DNA of 42,748 nt from a virus (lineage: Duplodnaviria > Heunggongvirae > Uroviricota > Caudoviricetes), in the IMG/VR virus record IMGVR_UViG_2695420651_000024. One strand, 5' to 3'. Position numbers and translations under genes: made by a program. The first letter of the stretch is position 1; every line of letters starts with the position of its first letter. This document shows positions 28,909 to 40,682 of the stretch, one piece after another. The notes beneath the pieces are model-generated. The model did no database searches. It was not told where the DNA came from and worked only from the letters and a program-made list of their open reading frames with translations.

Positions 28909-29583
28909 ATGATTGATACTACCGATATCCTTTCTCAAAACATCAAGTACCTGATGGACAAAGCCAAGATAAGCTCGATAACTGAGCTGGCACGTCGGTT
29001 ACAGCTGAACCAACCAACGCTACACAGGCTGGTATCAGGAGAGGTGAAAGATCCGAAATACGCAACGTTAAAGCAGATCGCCGACTACTTCCACGTGTCA
29101 CCAATAGACTTGGCAGAAAGGAGCCTTCAAGAAATGGAGAAAGAGGACGCGACAGGTATAAAAACGTATATTTCTCTTAGGTTTAATAAAGTACCTGTTT
29201 TGGGAAACACTCAGCTAGGCGTTGGAGGACTTTGGAGCGACACCCAATATTCAGTAGGTAGCAGTGATGGTTTCATATACTGGCCGACAAAGGATGAAGA
29301 TGCATACGCCCTGAAATGTGTTGGTGATTCAATGATGCCTAGAATCAAAGAGGGGGAGTTCGTAATCGTCGAACCCAACCACGACTACACTCCTGGTGAT
29401 GAAGTACTTGTGGTTACCCGGGAAGGTGAGGTCATGGTTAAAACCTTCTTGTTCGAACGCGATGGCCTGTTCCATCTAATGTCTGTAAATGAAGATCATC
29501 CACCAGTCAGAGTACCACGCGAAAACATTGAAAAAATCCATTACGTGGCGGGGATCGCCAAATCCGCGCTACGTATGTACTAA
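28909..29583 (+). CDS. cI: CI-like prophage repressor (HTH plus S24/LexA-type autopeptidase domain)
   Basis: 224 aa; N-terminal HTH (ITELARRLQLNQPTLHRLVSG); C-terminal LKCVGDSMMPRIKEGEFVIVEP (Ser) and a downstream Lys, as in LexA/CI. Confidence 0.8.
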   Translation: MIDTTDILSQNIKYLMDKAKISSITELARRLQLNQPTLHRLVSGEVKDPKYATLKQIADYFHVSPIDLAERSLQEMEKEDATGIKTYISLRFNKVPVLGNTQLGVGGLWSDTQYSVGSSDGFIYWPTKDEDAYALKCVGDSMMPRIKEGEFVIVEPNHDYTPGDEVLVVTREGEVMVKTFLFERDGLFHLMSVNEDHPPVRVPRENIEKIHYVAGIAKSALRMY

Positions 29584-30001: not shown

Positions 30002-30526
30002 TCATCTGGCAGGTTGTAACGGTGCAGGAGTTTTGCCACTGACTTCTATATTTCGGGGAAATTTATATTCAGCGGAGCATTTATGACACTTGAGAATTTT
30101 ATAAGCGGCATTAGAAGTATGGTATTGAAGTATAGACTTCATACCCGACTCATAGCATGTAGTACAAAGATAATGAGGCTTGAACTCAGGATCGTCAGTA
30201 GGCTTCAGTACATAGACCACCGTATTGGTAATCGGGTGGTACATTTCATAGTTCATTTTCTCACTATCCCAATCCTGTTTCTTTTCCAGAAGGGATTCGA
30301 GTTCAACAATGCGCTGTTTAGCTTCGTTCAAAAGCTCCGTTAGTGCGAATTGTCCAGTACGCGCATCAATTAGTTTATCAAGTAGATCGATAGTTTTACT
30401 TTTAACATTGTAATCCACCTGCAACGCATTAACTTCTTTTGCTAAATCAACAGCACCTTTCAAAGCACCACCAGCACTAGTGGCCGCCTCAGTTATACGC
30501 CGTACAAGTCCTTTTTCTTCAGACAT
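30002..30526 (-). CDS. Hypothetical protein with N-terminal coiled coil and C-terminal C4 zinc ribbon
   Basis: 174 aa; CTTC...(x20)...CHKC; GC lower than neighbours; sits in the immunity region beside cI, antisense to the strong plus-strand promoter. Confidence 0.5.
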   Translation of the reverse strand: MSEEKGLVRRITEAATSAGGALKGAVDLAKEVNALQVDYNVKSKTIDLLDKLIDARTGQFALTELLNEAKQRIVELESLLEKKQDWDSEKMNYEMYHPITNTVVYVLKPTDDPEFKPHYLCTTCYESGMKSILQYHTSNAAYKILKCHKCSAEYKFPRNIEVSGKTPAPLQPAR

Positions 30527-33719: not shown

Positions 33720-34349
33720 TCACTCAGGAATCTTAATCTTCCTCAATTCTTTATTTAGTTCACAGATCTTCTTCTTAGACGGGAAAGTATCATACATCCA
33801 AAAACCAACAGTCTCTAAAACTATTGTCATAACCATATACACAAGATAATTTAAAAGGCCTTCATTTTGCCCTATGGAAATAATGCAGATAATAGAAAAA
33901 AGGATAAACAGCACAAAACACAGAAAGGAAAACAGACGACTAATAATAAATAAAAAACCTGAAAAATTAACATTGATGAAAAACACTCCGTTATCTTTCT
34001 CTATATAATTCTGAAGCTTAATCACCTGATTTATATACTGTCTTTTTTCTAATCTATTGCAAATGTAAATAACATCACTTCGGTTATAAGAAGATTGCAA
34101 TTTCAGCGCATCACGAATAATTTTATCATTTATTCTTTTTTCTATGGCACTCTTATCCTCCTTATCCAGATAACGTTCATACTTAACTAAATATAAAATT
34201 AACTTCTTGACATATTTAGGCTCTTTATACTTATAATTAAAAATGATCTTTCTTATCCAGACTCCCATAACAATCAAACATGAAAAAATATATCCAGCTA
34301 TTTTCTCCAGATGCTCTGTATGGTCAATCAAGTATTGGATCATATGCAT
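33720..34349 (-). CDS. Hypothetical polytopic membrane protein on a low-GC insert, opposite strand to the early operon
   Basis: 209 aa; TM near the N-terminus, K/E/Y-rich cytoplasmic region, then a long hydrophobic stretch (FSGFLFIISRLFSFLCFVLFILFSIICIISIG) and a further TM; very AT-rich DNA. Confidence 0.5.
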   Translation of the reverse strand: MHMIQYLIDHTEHLEKIAGYIFSCLIVMGVWIRKIIFNYKYKEPKYVKKLILYLVKYERYLDKEDKSAIEKRINDKIIRDALKLQSSYNRSDVIYICNRLEKRQYINQVIKLQNYIEKDNGVFFINVNFSGFLFIISRLFSFLCFVLFILFSIICIISIGQNEGLLNYLVYMVMTIVLETVGFWMYDTFPSKKKICELNKELRKIKIPE

Positions 34350-36976: not shown

Positions 36977-37259
36977 ACGTGAAAGCCTTATCGAAAAGCA
37001 CCTCGTCGCTGAAGTGAAAAAAGCTGGCGGAGTGGCCTTTAAGTTTATATCTCCCGGTCGCCGCTCGGTACCAGATCGCATTGTTCTGCTACCCGGTGGT
37101 CGTATCGTTTTCGTTGAATGTAAAGCACCCGGCAAGCCACCACGCGCCGGCCAACTGCGTGAACACGGACGACTGCGCGCGCTGGGCTTTACCGTAGTGG
37201 TGCTGGATAGCAAAAATCTGGAGGGGATATTGTGCGGGGAGCCTATTACAACGAAATAG
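36966..37259 (+). CDS. VRR-NUC domain nuclease
   Basis: Start at internal ATG (MAYERESLIEKHLVAEVKKAGG...); ...RIVFVECKAPGKPPRAGQ matches the VRR-NUC D...E.K core. Confidence 0.65.
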   Translation: MAYERESLIEKHLVAEVKKAGGVAFKFISPGRRSVPDRIVLLPGGRIVFVECKAPGKPPRAGQLREHGRLRALGFTVVVLDSKNLEGILCGEPITTK

Positions 37260-38245
37260 ACCCTAACGCAGCACAATGGCTGCGTAACCTTATTGCTGCG
37301 GGTCATATCGCCCCGGGTGAAGTTGATGAAAGGAGTATCGAAGATGTCGCACCAGACGACTTGCGCGGATTCACACAGTGCCATTTCTTCGCCGGGATCG
37401 GCGTCTGGTCTTATGCTCTGCGTCTGGCCGGATGGCCGGATAACAAACCGGTCTGGACAGGAAGTTGCCCGTGCCAGCCTTTCAGCTCGGCTGGTAAAGG
37501 CGCTGGATTTGATGACGAGCGGCACCTATGGCCAGCGCTATTCCACCTCATCAGCGAGCGACGCCCTGAGCTGGTATTTGGCGAACAGGTTGCGGGAGTC
37601 AATGCCTGGTTCGATCTTGTACAAACTGACGTGGAAGCAGTGGACTACGCCTTTGGGCTTGTCCCGTTTCCGGCTGCGGGCGTCGGTGCCCCGCATATCC
37701 GAGATAGAGCGTATTGGGTGGCCGATGCCAGCGGCGAGCGACCACAGCGGTGGCGAAAGCGCCTCAATAGCATTGAGGAAGATGTCTGGAGATCGTCGAC
37801 CGTCCGGCAACACGCTACACAGCTCCCTGCGGGATTTTGCTCACCTGGCGGGGTGGTACACCCCAACCTGCAACACAAACCCACAGCCGGAGACAAAACG
37901 CGGTCTAGAAACCTTAGCGGGGCTATCCAGATTAGCGGGATGGCCGACAGTGACGACGGTCGACAACAACAAAGTTCGTGGCGAGGGCGCAGCGGCCAAT
38001 CATACCAAACGGGGAACGACCCTCGGCGGCCCAATACGATTAACAGCTGCTGGGATGATGCTGACTGGCTCCTCTGCCGGGATGGTCGCTGGCGGCCAGT
38101 TGAATCCGGCACATTCCCGTTGGCTCATGGGATTACCTCCAGAGTGGGACGACTGCGCGCCTACGGCAACGCGATAGTCGCACCAGCTGCCGCAACATTC
38201 ATCCGCTCGTTTATGGAATGCACAGGATACGACCTCATCTGTTGA
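37232..38245 (+). CDS. DNA (cytosine-5)-methyltransferase
   Basis: GTG start with GGAGG RBS; motif I FAGIGV, motif [15 protein letters not shown]-like [12 protein letters not shown], and C-terminal YGNAIV. A second frame (37293..38177) is also fully open; see findings. Confidence 0.7.
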
Positions 38246-38247
38246 TA

Positions 38248-39177
38248 TTATGGGTTAGGTAATGCACGATTATTAAAATTATCAATAATTTGCAACGCCG
38301 CCGTTTGTCCGCCAGCCAATAGCCCTGCTTTACTCAGAAGGTATTTAGGGAATTTGGTTGGTAAATAAACCGCACGAAGCCAGTGCCTGAATACAGCTAA
38401 AGCATTATCAGGGTATGCATAGACCATTTGGGGATTACTTGCGGATTGGTTGAATTCTTCAGGGTAATAGTGCTGGCAGCGTTGTCTTGGGCCAATCGTC
38501 GCATCGTAGTTGGAAGAAGACCAGTAGCGAGCCCAGTGCTGGCCCACACTGATATCCGGTACAGTGTACTGGTTTACTGCTAATCCAGCATGGATGAGGT
38601 CTACCATTAAACCAGCAATTTCATTGAATACAATGAAGTGTCCAGCAGGAACCGAGTTTGCCCCATGCATGATTGACACACGAGAGTGGTAATGACGCCA
38701 AGGGTCATCAGGTATGTAGCCAAGCGCTGTATAGATGTAACCACGCATACCCGCACGGGATAGCTCGCGGAAAAACTGTAGCGCAGTAGGAGTTGCAGCA
38801 CTTTGAGATACAAATGCGTAGAACTCCAGAATAGCCATACAGACTACTTCTGGGTACGCATAATGGACTGACCCATCTTTGTTGATTGGGATATAAAGAG
38901 TCGGCTCATTATATTGCTCACGCTGTAAATATGAGCTGATAAACTCCATACGCCCTCGAGCGAAAACTCCGTGGCGGAAGCTCTCTTCCCACTCTCGAGA
39001 AATATCCGCGATATTACTGCGATGCACCCCGCAAATCCTAGCCAGCCCATTTTGCGTAAGGTAGGAGATCCCGTTCTGAAGAACCCCCATTTCTATTTCG
39101 TTAAAAACCCCCTCAGTACTAACACCTAAGTCCAGTACTTGTTGGGGTGCGGGTTGCTGACCACCAAATTCACTCAT
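38248..39177 (-). CDS. Hypothetical protein with N-terminal HTH-like segment, opposite strand to the early operon
   Basis: 309 aa; NGISYLTQNGLARICGVHRSNIADISREW looks like a DNA-binding helix-turn-helix; convergent with the MTase gene and divergent from the SNF2 gene. Confidence 0.45.
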   Translation of the reverse strand: MSEFGGQQPAPQQVLDLGVSTEGVFNEIEMGVLQNGISYLTQNGLARICGVHRSNIADISREWEESFRHGVFARGRMEFISSYLQREQYNEPTLYIPINKDGSVHYAYPEVVCMAILEFYAFVSQSAATPTALQFFRELSRAGMRGYIYTALGYIPDDPWRHYHSRVSIMHGANSVPAGHFIVFNEIAGLMVDLIHAGLAVNQYTVPDISVGQHWARYWSSSNYDATIGPRQRCQHYYPEEFNQSASNPQMVYAYPDNALAVFRHWLRAVYLPTKFPKYLLSKAGLLAGGQTAALQIIDNFNNRALPNP

Positions 39178-39287
39178 TTTATTGTTTATCCTTACATTTA
39201 ACCCTGTGGGTTACCTTCGCTGTGAATAGTAAAAATTGCCAGGCCAACTGGTGCGACCTCTAACTAGCAAAAATTTGCGAGATTATA

Positions 39288-40682
39288 ATGCCTCAAAACT
39301 TTATCCCTCGCCCCTACCAAGATCTCATTATCAACCACGAAATCGACATCATGCGCTGCAACATCTGGGCAGGTATGGGAATGGGTAAAACCGTAGCGAC
39401 ACTCACCACGCTGGAAGATCTTTTCATGGCTGGAGCAGAAACACGCCCCGCGCTGGTCCTCGCGCCGCTACGCGTTGCAGCAAGCACCTGGCCTGATGAA
39501 GCTGTTAAATGGGGGCATCTGCGTAATATTGAGGTGCAGCCGATTGTTGGTAACGCCAAAGCGCGCTCTGCAGCGCTGGCGAACAGCAACGCAAGCGTGT
39601 TCACCATCAACTACGATAACCTTGTCTGGCTGGTTGAGGAATTGGGAGAACGATGGCCGTTCGGTACTGTCATTCCAGATGAAAGCACCCAGCTAAAATC
39701 CTTCCGGCTGCGAGGTGGTGGTAAGCGCGCGGCGGCGCTGGGCAAAGTGGCGCATAAGTATGTCCGGCGCTGGATAAATCTCACCGGTACGCCAGCACCG
39801 AACGGCCTGGTAGATTTGTGGGGACAAGCGTGGTTTGTGGACCAGGGGCAACGTCTCGGACGCACTTACGGCGCGTTTACCTCACGCTGGTTCAACTCGA
39901 TACAGTTTCCGGGGCAGAGCTGGACCAAACTGGAGCCGTTTGCTCACTCACAGGGTGAAATACAGCGAGCGTTAGCCGATGTGACCCTATCGCTGGATGC
40001 GGCCGACTGGTTCGATATCAAAGACCCCATCCATAACGTAATCCGCGTGGATATGCCGCCGAAGGCCCGTCAGCAGTATCGTGAAATGGAAAAGGAAATG
40101 TTCCTCGAGCTGAATGGCGAAGGCATCGAAGCACCAAACGCCGCGGCAAAGACACTGAAGTGTCTGCAAATCGCCAGTGGCGCAGTATACACAGACGACA
40201 CCGGAAGTTGGTCAGAACTGCATGACACCAAACTGCAGGCGCTGGACAGCATACTGACCGAAGCAGCTGGCGCACCTGTGCTGGTTGCTTATCACTGGAA
40301 ACACGATCTTGAACGCTTGCTTAAAGCATTCCCTCGCGGTCGTCACCTCGACCAAGATCCACAGACACTGCGCGACTGGAATTCCGGAAAGATTCCTGTT
40401 CTCTTTGCACACCCAGCCAGCGCGGGCCACGGTCTGAACATGCAGGACGGCGGAAACATACTGGTATTTTTCTCACACTGGTGGGACCTGGAGCAGTATC
40501 AGCAAATTATTGAACGTATCGGCCCCACCAGGCAGATACAGGCCGGACACAATCGTCCGGTATTTATTCACCACATTATTGCGGCCGACACTATGGACGA
40601 AATGGTGATGGAGCGGCGCAACTCAAAACGAACAGTGCAGGACATCCTGCTCGATGCCATGAAAAAGAGAGGTATAGCATGA
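39288..40682 (+). CDS. SNF2-family DNA helicase/translocase
   Basis: 464 aa; Walker A GMGMGKT, DExx box (VIPDEST), and helicase C-terminal motifs. Confidence 0.75.
   Translation: MPQNFIPRPYQDLIINHEIDIMRCNIWAGMGMGKTVATLTTLEDLFMAGAETRPALVLAPLRVAASTWPDEAVKWGHLRNIEVQPIVGNAKARSAALANSNASVFTINYDNLVWLVEELGERWPFGTVIPDESTQLKSFRLRGGGKRAAALGKVAHKYVRRWINLTGTPAPNGLVDLWGQAWFVDQGQRLGRTYGAFTSRWFNSIQFPGQSWTKLEPFAHSQGEIQRALADVTLSLDAADWFDIKDPIHNVIRVDMPPKARQQYREMEKEMFLELNGEGIEAPNAAAKTLKCLQIASGAVYTDDTGSWSELHDTKLQALDSILTEAAGAPVLVAYHWKHDLERLLKAFPRGRHLDQDPQTLRDWNSGKIPVLFAHPASAGHGLNMQDGGNILVFFSHWWDLEQYQQIIERIGPTRQIQAGHNRPVFIHHIIAADTMDEMVMERRNSKRTVQDILLDAMKKRGIA

What the first reader, a model, noticed from the sequence alone, without database searches (positions are those of the whole stretch)
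38248..39177. Opposite-strand 309-aa gene with an HTH-like N-terminus wedged between the methyltransferase and SNF2 helicase genes
It interrupts a co-directional operon and is divergent from the SNF2 gene across a 110-bp gap, implying its own promoter. N-terminal HTH-like proteins inserted in lambdoid prophages include antirepressors and single-gene abortive-infection proteins; I cannot place this one in a known family with confidence.
Basis: inference. Interest (0 to 1): 0.45.

Follow-up and report, generated by a model that had tools for sequence, protein, structure and literature searches.

The report
BstA-family abortive-infection gene in prophage
The opposite-strand 309-codon gene is a full-length member of the known BstA family of prophage-encoded anti-phage proteins, so it is ordinary in kind, though it sits in an unusual place: inside the replication genes of a non-lambda-type E. 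coli prophage instead of next to the repressor.

Summary
An intact 309-aa ORF lies at 38248..39177 (-), 2 bp from the methyltransferase stop codon and 110 bp from the divergent SNF2 start.

It belongs to a known family. It matches BstA profiles end to end (PADLOC E=2.5e-110, PHROG 6287 E=6e-98). It is 38% identical to BstA of Salmonella phage BTP1, the characterised abortive-infection protein that blocks phage DNA replication. The identical database protein carries PF26567 (BstA_C), and the AF2 model shows a KilA-N/Bro-like N-terminal domain.

The context differs from the published pattern. The gene is about 9 kb from the prophage repressor, in a hypervariable cargo slot of a PolA/SNF2 prophage integrated at yfhL. 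Of 160 related E. coli prophages, 15 carry this allele and 11 carry a second BstA allele.

I also found direct repeats 56/57 bp apart at the 5' end of bstA in 53 of 80 loci. This is the geometry of the self-immunity element aba mapped in BTP1. The window has a weak copy of it, AACCCaCA/AACCCgCA (39212-39205 and 39155-39148, p about 0.003-0.01).

Verdict: a new member of a known kind. Defence activity, the promoter and aba function are all untested.

The parts
38248..39177 (-). bstA homologue, 309 aa: N-terminal KilA-N/HTH-like DNA-binding domain (about residues 16-155) and C-terminal BstA_C domain (about residues 156-305)
39189..39193 (-). Shine-Dalgarno-like AAGGA, 11 nt upstream of the ATG
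   Evidence: Read directly from the sequence. TAAGGA is conserved at this position in the 60-64% identical relatives L084, L085 and L087.
39148..39212 (-). Candidate aba (anti-BstA self-immunity) element: direct repeat AACCCaCA (39212-39205, non-coding, -35 from the ATG) and AACCCgCA (39155-39148, codons 8-10), 57 bp apart and straddling the start codon
   Evidence: It has the same geometry as the aba mapped experimentally in BTP1, whose CCCGCC repeats are 56 bp apart. Repeats with 56/57-bp spacing are the best repeat in 53 of 80 BstA loci and occur in phages CL707, RCIP0114 and D14H. The window repeat is the only match of at least 7/8 in the region. Given the expected geometry, p=0.003 against shuffles and 0.011 against genomic background. 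It is weak, and its function is inferred.
39200..39212 (-). Palindrome AACCCACAGGGTT containing the upstream repeat copy; its CAGGGT half is conserved in the closest relatives
   Evidence: Sequence. CAGGGT lies at -31..-26 in WIN, L084, L085 and L087. Its role is unknown: it could be an operator or part of aba.
39178..39287 (.). 110-bp divergent intergenic region belonging to the bstA cassette; presumed site of the bstA promoter and of any SNF2 promoter
   Evidence: This region is not alignable with related prophages that carry other cargo; similarity resumes only inside the SNF2 coding sequence. No sigma-70 consensus match was found on the minus strand. The promoter is therefore inferred, not located.
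39267..39278 (.). Palindrome GCAAATTTTTGC, ending 9 nt upstream of the SNF2 start codon
   Evidence: Sequence. A similar palindrome lies at the same place in the second BstA cassette, L089, and in L084 and L085. Function unknown.
37232..38245 (+). DNA cytosine-C5 methyltransferase, convergent neighbour of bstA; no predicted terminator between the two genes
   Evidence: Pfam DNA_methylase, RefSeq annotation, terminator scan.
39288..40682 (+). SNF2-family helicase, divergent neighbour of bstA and the conserved anchor of the cargo slot
   Evidence: Pfam SNF2-rel_dom. It has the same neighbour relationship in the relatives L084-L088.
28909..29583 (+). Prophage CI-type repressor (HTH plus Peptidase_S24), about 9 kb from bstA; listed to show that bstA is not in the canonical position downstream of the repressor
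   Evidence: Pfam, annotation.

Best explanation
The gene encodes a BstA-family abortive-infection protein carried as accessory cargo by a temperate E. coli phage integrated next to yfhL.

By homology to BstA of phage BTP1, the likely mechanism is as follows. The protein is made in the lysogen. When a heterologous phage infects, the N-terminal KilA-N/HTH-like domain takes the protein to the replicating phage DNA. Phage DNA replication is blocked and the infected cell dies without releasing progeny, which protects the lysogen population.

When the resident prophage is itself induced, a short DNA element at the 5' end of the gene (aba) neutralises the cognate BstA as its copy number rises. Here the candidate is the 57-bp-spaced direct repeat at 39148-39212.

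What is shown: family membership, domain architecture, cargo status, the genomic context, and the family-wide repeat signature. What is inferred from the characterised homologues: defence activity, abortive infection, DNA binding, expression in the lysogen, and aba function.

One extra inference is specific to this locus. bstA converges on the early replication operon with no terminator between them. Lytic read-through towards the SNF2 gene would therefore be antisense to bstA and could dampen its expression during induction.
Against: No experiment exists on this allele. At 38% identity, activity and target range cannot be assumed. The gene is not downstream of the repressor, so the published route of expression from the repressor promoter does not apply. 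No convincing sigma-70 promoter was found in the 110-bp gap. The candidate aba is weak: 7/8 over 8 nt, and only 8/12 over 12 nt, which is no better than the best match at other spacings in this locus. Three of the five closest distinct relatives (L004, L084, L085) show no repeat at that spacing. The C-terminal domain has no structural or sequence relative of known function, so the effector step is unknown for the whole family.
Confidence: 0.8

Rival explanations
1. The protein is a KilA-N/Bro-type antirepressor or transcription regulator that serves the prophage's own lysis-lysogeny switch or controls the adjacent SNF2/replication genes.
For: The N-terminal domain resembles KilA-N, Bro-N and antirepressor folds and a CII-type HTH. 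Members of this BstA clade sit repeatedly beside the SNF2 gene in the same phage type across genera. Conserved palindromes lie in the shared intergenic region.
Against: The match to BstA covers the full length, including the BstA_C domain, and there is no ANT or Bro-C domain. The gene is absent from about 84% of closely related E. coli prophages, which carry unrelated genes in the slot. It is therefore dispensable for the phage's own cycle.
Confidence: 0.07
2. The gene is a BstA homologue that is silent or no longer functional in this context: cargo without a working promoter or without working self-immunity.
For: No sigma-70-like promoter was detected. The upstream repeat copy is degenerate. 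The neighbouring methyltransferase is frameshifted in one strain.
Against: The ORF is intact and 99.3-99.8% identical in 15 genomes of several serotypes. All family-invariant residues are retained. The RBS and upstream CAGGGT motif are conserved in 60-64% identical relatives.
Confidence: 0.08
3. The 56/57-bp repeat signature is not aba. It reflects a protein-level repeat (PAT...PAT) or an mRNA structure around the translation start.
For: In long-form homologues both copies are coding and 57 bp equals 19 codons. In the window's clade, GGGT upstream and ACCC downstream could pair.
Against: In at least 10 loci an in-frame stop separates the two copies. In the 56-bp clade the copies are in different reading frames. 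In BTP1 the repeats were shown by mutation to be required for a DNA-based element that does not depend on transcription. The consensus RNA fold is negligible at -2.5 kcal/mol.
Confidence: 0.1

Closest known systems
BstA of Salmonella prophage BTP1 (Owen et al. 2021, Cell Host Microbe 29:1620; PMC8585504)
   Same: It is alignable over the full length at 38% identity, with the same two-domain architecture (KilA-N-like N-terminus plus BstA_C) and nearly the same length (309 vs 307 aa). Both are prophage-borne. Both have a direct repeat straddling the start codon with 56/57-bp spacing.
   Different: BTP1 bstA lies directly downstream of cI in a P22-like phage and shares the repressor promoter. Here the gene is about 9 kb from the repressor, on the opposite strand inside the replication operon of a PolA/SNF2-type prophage, with its own upstream region. 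The repeat sequence differs (AACCCrCA vs CCCGCC) and is imperfect.
BstA-Ec-type and BstA-Kp-type homologues, represented here by phage CL707 and Klebsiella phage RCIP0114
   Same: They belong to the same family. CL707 has its repeat ATCCCTrCA at exactly the same coordinates as the window (-35 and +22, spacing 57), including an A/G difference between the two copies.
   Different: They are only 32-33% identical to the window protein. Both lie downstream of cI-type repressors. Their equivalence to the experimentally tested BstA-Ec and BstA-Kp is inferred only from matching identity values to BTP1 BstA (42% and 48%).
KilA-N / Bro-N antirepressor-like phage proteins
   Same: The fold of the N-terminal DNA-binding domain is similar.
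   Different: The structural scores are weak, there is no Pfam KilA-N hit, and the C-terminal domain is unrelated.
Lambda RexAB and other prophage morons expressed in lysogens
   Same: Both are prophage-encoded abortive-infection cargo placed in a variable slot, oriented so that they can be expressed independently of the lytic operons.
   Different: This is a single protein unrelated in sequence, and it carries a DNA-based self-immunity element.

Membership tests
BstA (PADLOC PDLC02356 / PHROG 6287 / Pfam PF26567) | End-to-end sequence similarity to the BstA profile | tested here: met
   PADLOC E=2.5e-110 covering profile positions 4-289 of 292. PHROG E=6e-98 covering 8-302 of 304. 38% identity to BTP1 BstA.
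BstA | Two-domain architecture: N-terminal KilA-N-like/HTH DNA-binding domain plus C-terminal BstA_C domain, with the boundary near residue 155 | tested here: met
   PF26567 on the identical protein. The AF2 model has two folded halves. The N-terminal half hits KilA-N, Bro-N and APSES-type folds, weakly. A PADLOC HTH model covers residues 26-154.
BstA | Retention of the family-invariant residues | tested here: met
   All 52 invariant columns of the 86-sequence alignment are present in the window protein.
BstA | Carried by a prophage | tested here: met
   The window holds terminase, head, tail, lysis, Q, repressor and integrase genes next to yfhL.
BstA | Located downstream of, and co-oriented with, the prophage repressor (typical of the family but not universal) | tested here: not met
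   The repressor is at 28909-29583 (+) and bstA at 38248-39177 (-), between the methyltransferase and SNF2 genes. This is a typical context, not a defining feature: 21% of the published homologues are not even prophage-associated.
BstA | Cognate aba DNA element at the 5' end of the gene, with terminal direct repeats | tested here: inconclusive
   A 7/8 direct repeat is present at the family-typical position and 57-bp spacing (p about 0.003-0.011). It is short, and it is absent from 3 of the 5 nearest distinct relatives.
BstA | Abortive-infection phenotype with a block of phage DNA replication | not testable with these tools
   This needs phage challenge, survival assays and Southern blot or qPCR of phage DNA.
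KilA-N / Bro antirepressors | Pfam KilA-N or Bro-N domain plus an ANT or Bro-C type C-terminal domain | tested here: not met
   The Pfam scan at E<=10 returned only a weak CII HTH hit. The C-terminal half is BstA_C.

The most novel reading that the evidence does not exclude
[quoted passage not shown] If so, cognate immunity sites could be predicted from sequence. In the window's PolA/SNF2-phage clade the upstream copy has diverged into a conserved CAGGGT-containing palindrome. This clade may therefore use a modified self-immunity mode, for example an altered BstA binding site combined with antisense read-through from the replication operon.
Probability: 0.4. Interest if true: 0.55.

Novelty: new member of a known kind. 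Interest (0 to 1): 0.3.

Why it matters
For annotation, this settles a 'hypothetical protein' found in EHEC O103:H2, O45:H2, O55:H7 and ETEC H10407 as a BstA-type defence gene. It also shows that BstA is not confined to the repressor-adjacent slot of lambda/P22-like phages. One pan-genome survey reported E. coli bstA only in lambda-like prophages at a tRNA-Arg hotspot (PMC10121019).

More generally, the 56/57-bp repeat signature gives a concrete, testable handle on two open questions: how aba DNA silences BstA, and what sets cognate specificity. The variable slot between VRR-NUC and SNF2 is also a place to look for further defence cargo.

Tried and rejected
- The local Pfam and NCBIfam scans gave no family. 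Pfam returned only a sub-threshold CII HTH hit, and the local Pfam copy appears to lack PF26567.
- A profile search of PDB sequences found nothing.
- The RefSeq name 'PI-PLC domain-containing protein', used for the same WP accession in one record, was followed up. No PI-PLC similarity appeared in the Pfam scan or the fold searches, and the modelled C-domain is mainly helical, so I do not adopt that name.
- The sigma-70 promoter scan of the intergenic region found nothing on the minus strand. By eye the best candidate is TTCACA-N19-TTAAAT, which is suboptimal.
- An mRNA helix pairing GGGT (5' UTR) with ACCC (codons 9-11) was tested by a consensus fold of five relatives. The energy was only -2.5 kcal/mol, so it was rejected as weak.
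- Rfam and tRNA scans of the whole window found nothing.
- A literature search for later mechanistic or structural work on BstA found none in the held library.

Full report
**Observation.** The window contains an intact ORF at 38248..39177 on the minus strand: 309 aa, ATG start, TAA stop. AAGGA lies 11 nt upstream of the ATG. The nearest in-frame upstream stop is at -36, with no alternative start codon in between. The cytosine methyltransferase ORF ends at 38245, so the two genes converge with 2 bp between them. The SNF2 helicase ATG is at 39288, which leaves a 110-bp divergent gap.

**Identity.** The protein matches the PADLOC BstA model over its whole length (E=2.5e-110, residues 10-303 on profile positions 4-289 of 292). 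It also matches PHROG 6287, 'BstA abortive infection system, replication inhibitor' (E=6e-98). The local Pfam-A copy gave only a sub-threshold CII-type HTH hit at residues 26-64, and NCBIfam gave nothing. However, the identical database protein and all 120 listed homologues carry PF26567, the BstA_C domain. The newest RefSeq record names WP_001288450.1 'BstA C-terminal domain-containing protein'.

- A tblastn search of phage genomes finds BTP1 bstA (st313-td) at 38% identity over residues 19-308.
- A 36-sequence alignment that includes BTP1 BstA is collinear throughout.
- The window protein keeps all 52 invariant columns of an 86-sequence alignment.
- An exhaustive HMMER scan of 1.84 billion cluster representatives finds 565 relatives at E<=1e-3 and 299 at E<=1e-10. 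The family is real but not large.

**Structure.** AlphaFold2 with the 86-sequence alignment gives mean pLDDT 85. The N-terminal half is a beta-beta-beta-alpha-alpha...beta-beta-alpha domain. The C-terminal half is mainly helical with one beta-hairpin.

- Foldseek against viral models returns KilA-N, Bro-N, antirepressor and 'repressor domain' proteins at weak E-values.
- Foldseek against PDB and a profile search of PDB sequences find nothing.

The N-terminal domain is therefore KilA-N-like, as published for BstA (PMC8585504). The C-terminal effector domain has no relative of known function. One RefSeq record names the same protein 'PI-PLC domain-containing', and I found no support for that name.

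**What is known about the family (PMC8585504).** BstA of prophage BTP1 is expressed in lysogens. It co-localises with infecting phage DNA, prevents phage DNA replication and causes abortive infection. Homologues from E. coli and Klebsiella, 42-48% identical to it, also defend. The prophage escapes its own BstA through aba, a 63-bp DNA element made of 29 bp upstream plus the first 34 bp of bstA. The terminal CCCGCC direct repeats of aba are essential. Each BstA has its own cognate aba. The authors stress that bstA usually lies downstream of the prophage repressor.

**Context here.** The window is an E. coli prophage integrated beside yfhL. It has a CI-type repressor (HTH plus S24 peptidase, 28909-29583, +) with a divergent Cro-like gene, a Q antiterminator and a lambda-family holin. 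Its replication module is VapE primase, DUF2800, an Enc34-type SSB, PolA, VRR-NUC and SNF2. bstA is about 9 kb from the repressor and on the opposite strand, so the canonical architecture is not met.

- The flanking VRR-NUC...SNF2 module is found in 160 of 5426 complete E. coli genomes.
- Only 15 genomes carry this bstA, at 99.3-99.8% identity. They include O103:H2 12009, ETEC H10407, O45:H2 and O55:H7.
- Eleven genomes carry a second allele, 64% identical at the protein level, in the same slot.
- Other prophages carry different cargo there: a 106-aa ORF, a three-gene minus-strand cassette, DUF6338 plus a small ORF, or Arc/Arc/Rha genes.
- Alignment of the region upstream of SNF2 shows that similarity between prophages with different cargo resumes only inside the SNF2 coding sequence. 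The whole 110-bp intergenic region therefore belongs to the cassette.
- Homologues 60-64% identical, from other assemblies, occupy the same position, divergent from SNF2, in the same phage type with different integration sites.

This BstA clade is thus a recurrent but dispensable cargo of this phage lineage. A pan-genome survey had reported E. coli bstA only in lambda-like prophages at a tRNA-Arg hotspot (PMC10121019).

**Self-immunity element: the family-wide signature.** I asked whether the aba geometry is general. I took 78 loci from species-representative genomes together with BTP1 and the window, making 80 loci.

- The longest exact direct repeat in the 220 nt upstream of the conserved M30 codon has spacing 57 in 31 loci and 56 in 12. 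No other spacing between 30 and 90 is the best in more than 3 loci.
- A mismatch-tolerant 12-mer scan gives 39 loci at spacing 57 and 14 at spacing 56, together 53 of 80. In 45 loci the 56/57 score beats all 57 other spacings tested.
- The repeated sequence differs between loci but co-varies between its two copies. Examples are AACTCCAGCCAC, CACCCGGCACCC, GGTCACCACCCC and TTTTCGGCCACC.
- In at least 10 loci an in-frame stop separates the copies, and in the 56-bp clade the copies are out of frame. This is therefore a DNA-level feature and not a peptide repeat.
- Phage-borne loci show it too: BTP1 CCCGCCA (56), D14H GnCCGCCAG (56), RCIP0114 TGGTCAyCAC (57) and CL707 ATCCCTrCA (57).
- The CL707 and RCIP0114 proteins are 42% and 48% identical to BTP1 BstA. 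These are the values published for the tested BstA-Ec and BstA-Kp. That equivalence is inferred from the numbers only.
- The source paper describes the repeat only for BTP1.

**Self-immunity element: the window.** The only match of at least 7/8 in the region is AACCCaCA (39212-39205, at -35) with AACCCgCA (39155-39148, at +22). The spacing is 57, the same coordinates as in CL707. Given the expected geometry, p=0.003 by shuffling and 0.011 against the window's own background.

The evidence is nevertheless weak. The match is only 8/12 in the 12-mer scan, no better than the best match at other spacings in this locus. Among the nearest relatives, only L087/L088 show an equivalent repeat (GGTTACA, 57 bp). 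L004, L084 and L085 do not. In this clade the upstream copy sits in, or next to, a conserved CAGGGT motif, which in the window forms the palindrome AACCCACAGGGTT. I treat 39148-39212 as a candidate aba with roughly 40% confidence.

**Expression.** No sigma-70 consensus match lies on the minus strand of the gap, so the promoter is not located. No terminator-like site separates the methyltransferase gene from bstA. Early-operon transcription heading for SNF2 would therefore be antisense to bstA. This is an inference with no data behind it.

**Verdict.** It is a new, uncharacterised member of the known BstA family in a non-canonical genomic position. Family membership is near certain. Defence function is likely, by homology. 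aba assignment, promoter and mechanism remain to be tested. Interest is low to moderate. The family-wide 56/57-bp repeat signature is the most useful by-product.

Noticed in passing
L003-L083 and L093-L096 (5' ends of bstA homologues); window 39148-39212: Direct repeats spaced 56 or 57 bp apart lie at the 5' end of bstA in 53 of 80 loci. The repeat sequence co-varies between its two copies from locus to locus. The downstream copy overlies the conserved PAxPxQ codons. This matches the aba geometry mapped in BTP1, but the source paper does not describe it for the whole family.
   Followed up: yes
window 33720-34349 (-): A 209-aa ORF with apparently hydrophobic, membrane-like stretches lies on the opposite strand between the SSB-like gene and PolA. 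It has no Pfam or PADLOC hit. Related prophages carry other opposite-strand ORFs in the same slot: DUF4145 in L085, UCP028583 in L086, and a 199-aa ORF in L002. This looks like a second cargo hotspot.
   Followed up: partly
L002 3659-4420; L092 1-72: Related yfhL prophages carry a TIR-domain gene just downstream of PolA. It is absent from the window.
   Followed up: no
window 39267-39278: The palindrome GCAAATTTTTGC ends 9 nt upstream of the SNF2 start codon. Similar palindromes (GCAATTTTTTGC, TTGCAATTTTTTGCAA) occur at the same place in other BstA-carrying cassettes (L089/L084, L085). It may be an operator.
   Followed up: partly
window 38248-39177; L097: The same RefSeq protein, WP_001288450.1, is named 'hypothetical protein', 'PI-PLC domain-containing protein' or 'BstA C-terminal domain-containing protein' in different genome records. 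No PI-PLC similarity could be reproduced.
   Followed up: yes
window 30002-30526 (-): A 174-aa ORF of unknown function occupies the region just downstream of the CI-type repressor, which is where bstA sits in lambdoid phages. It has no defence-model hit.
   Followed up: partly
NC_021662.1 919-1353 (Psychrobacter plasmid, hit H91); P0243-P0249: Some proteins combine the BstA_C domain with a different N-terminal domain, annotated as KilA-N in one plasmid. This fits a modular sensor-effector design.
   Followed up: no
L001 19132-20146: The methyltransferase next to bstA is annotated as frameshifted in strain EL361 but is intact in the window and in other strains.
   Followed up: no
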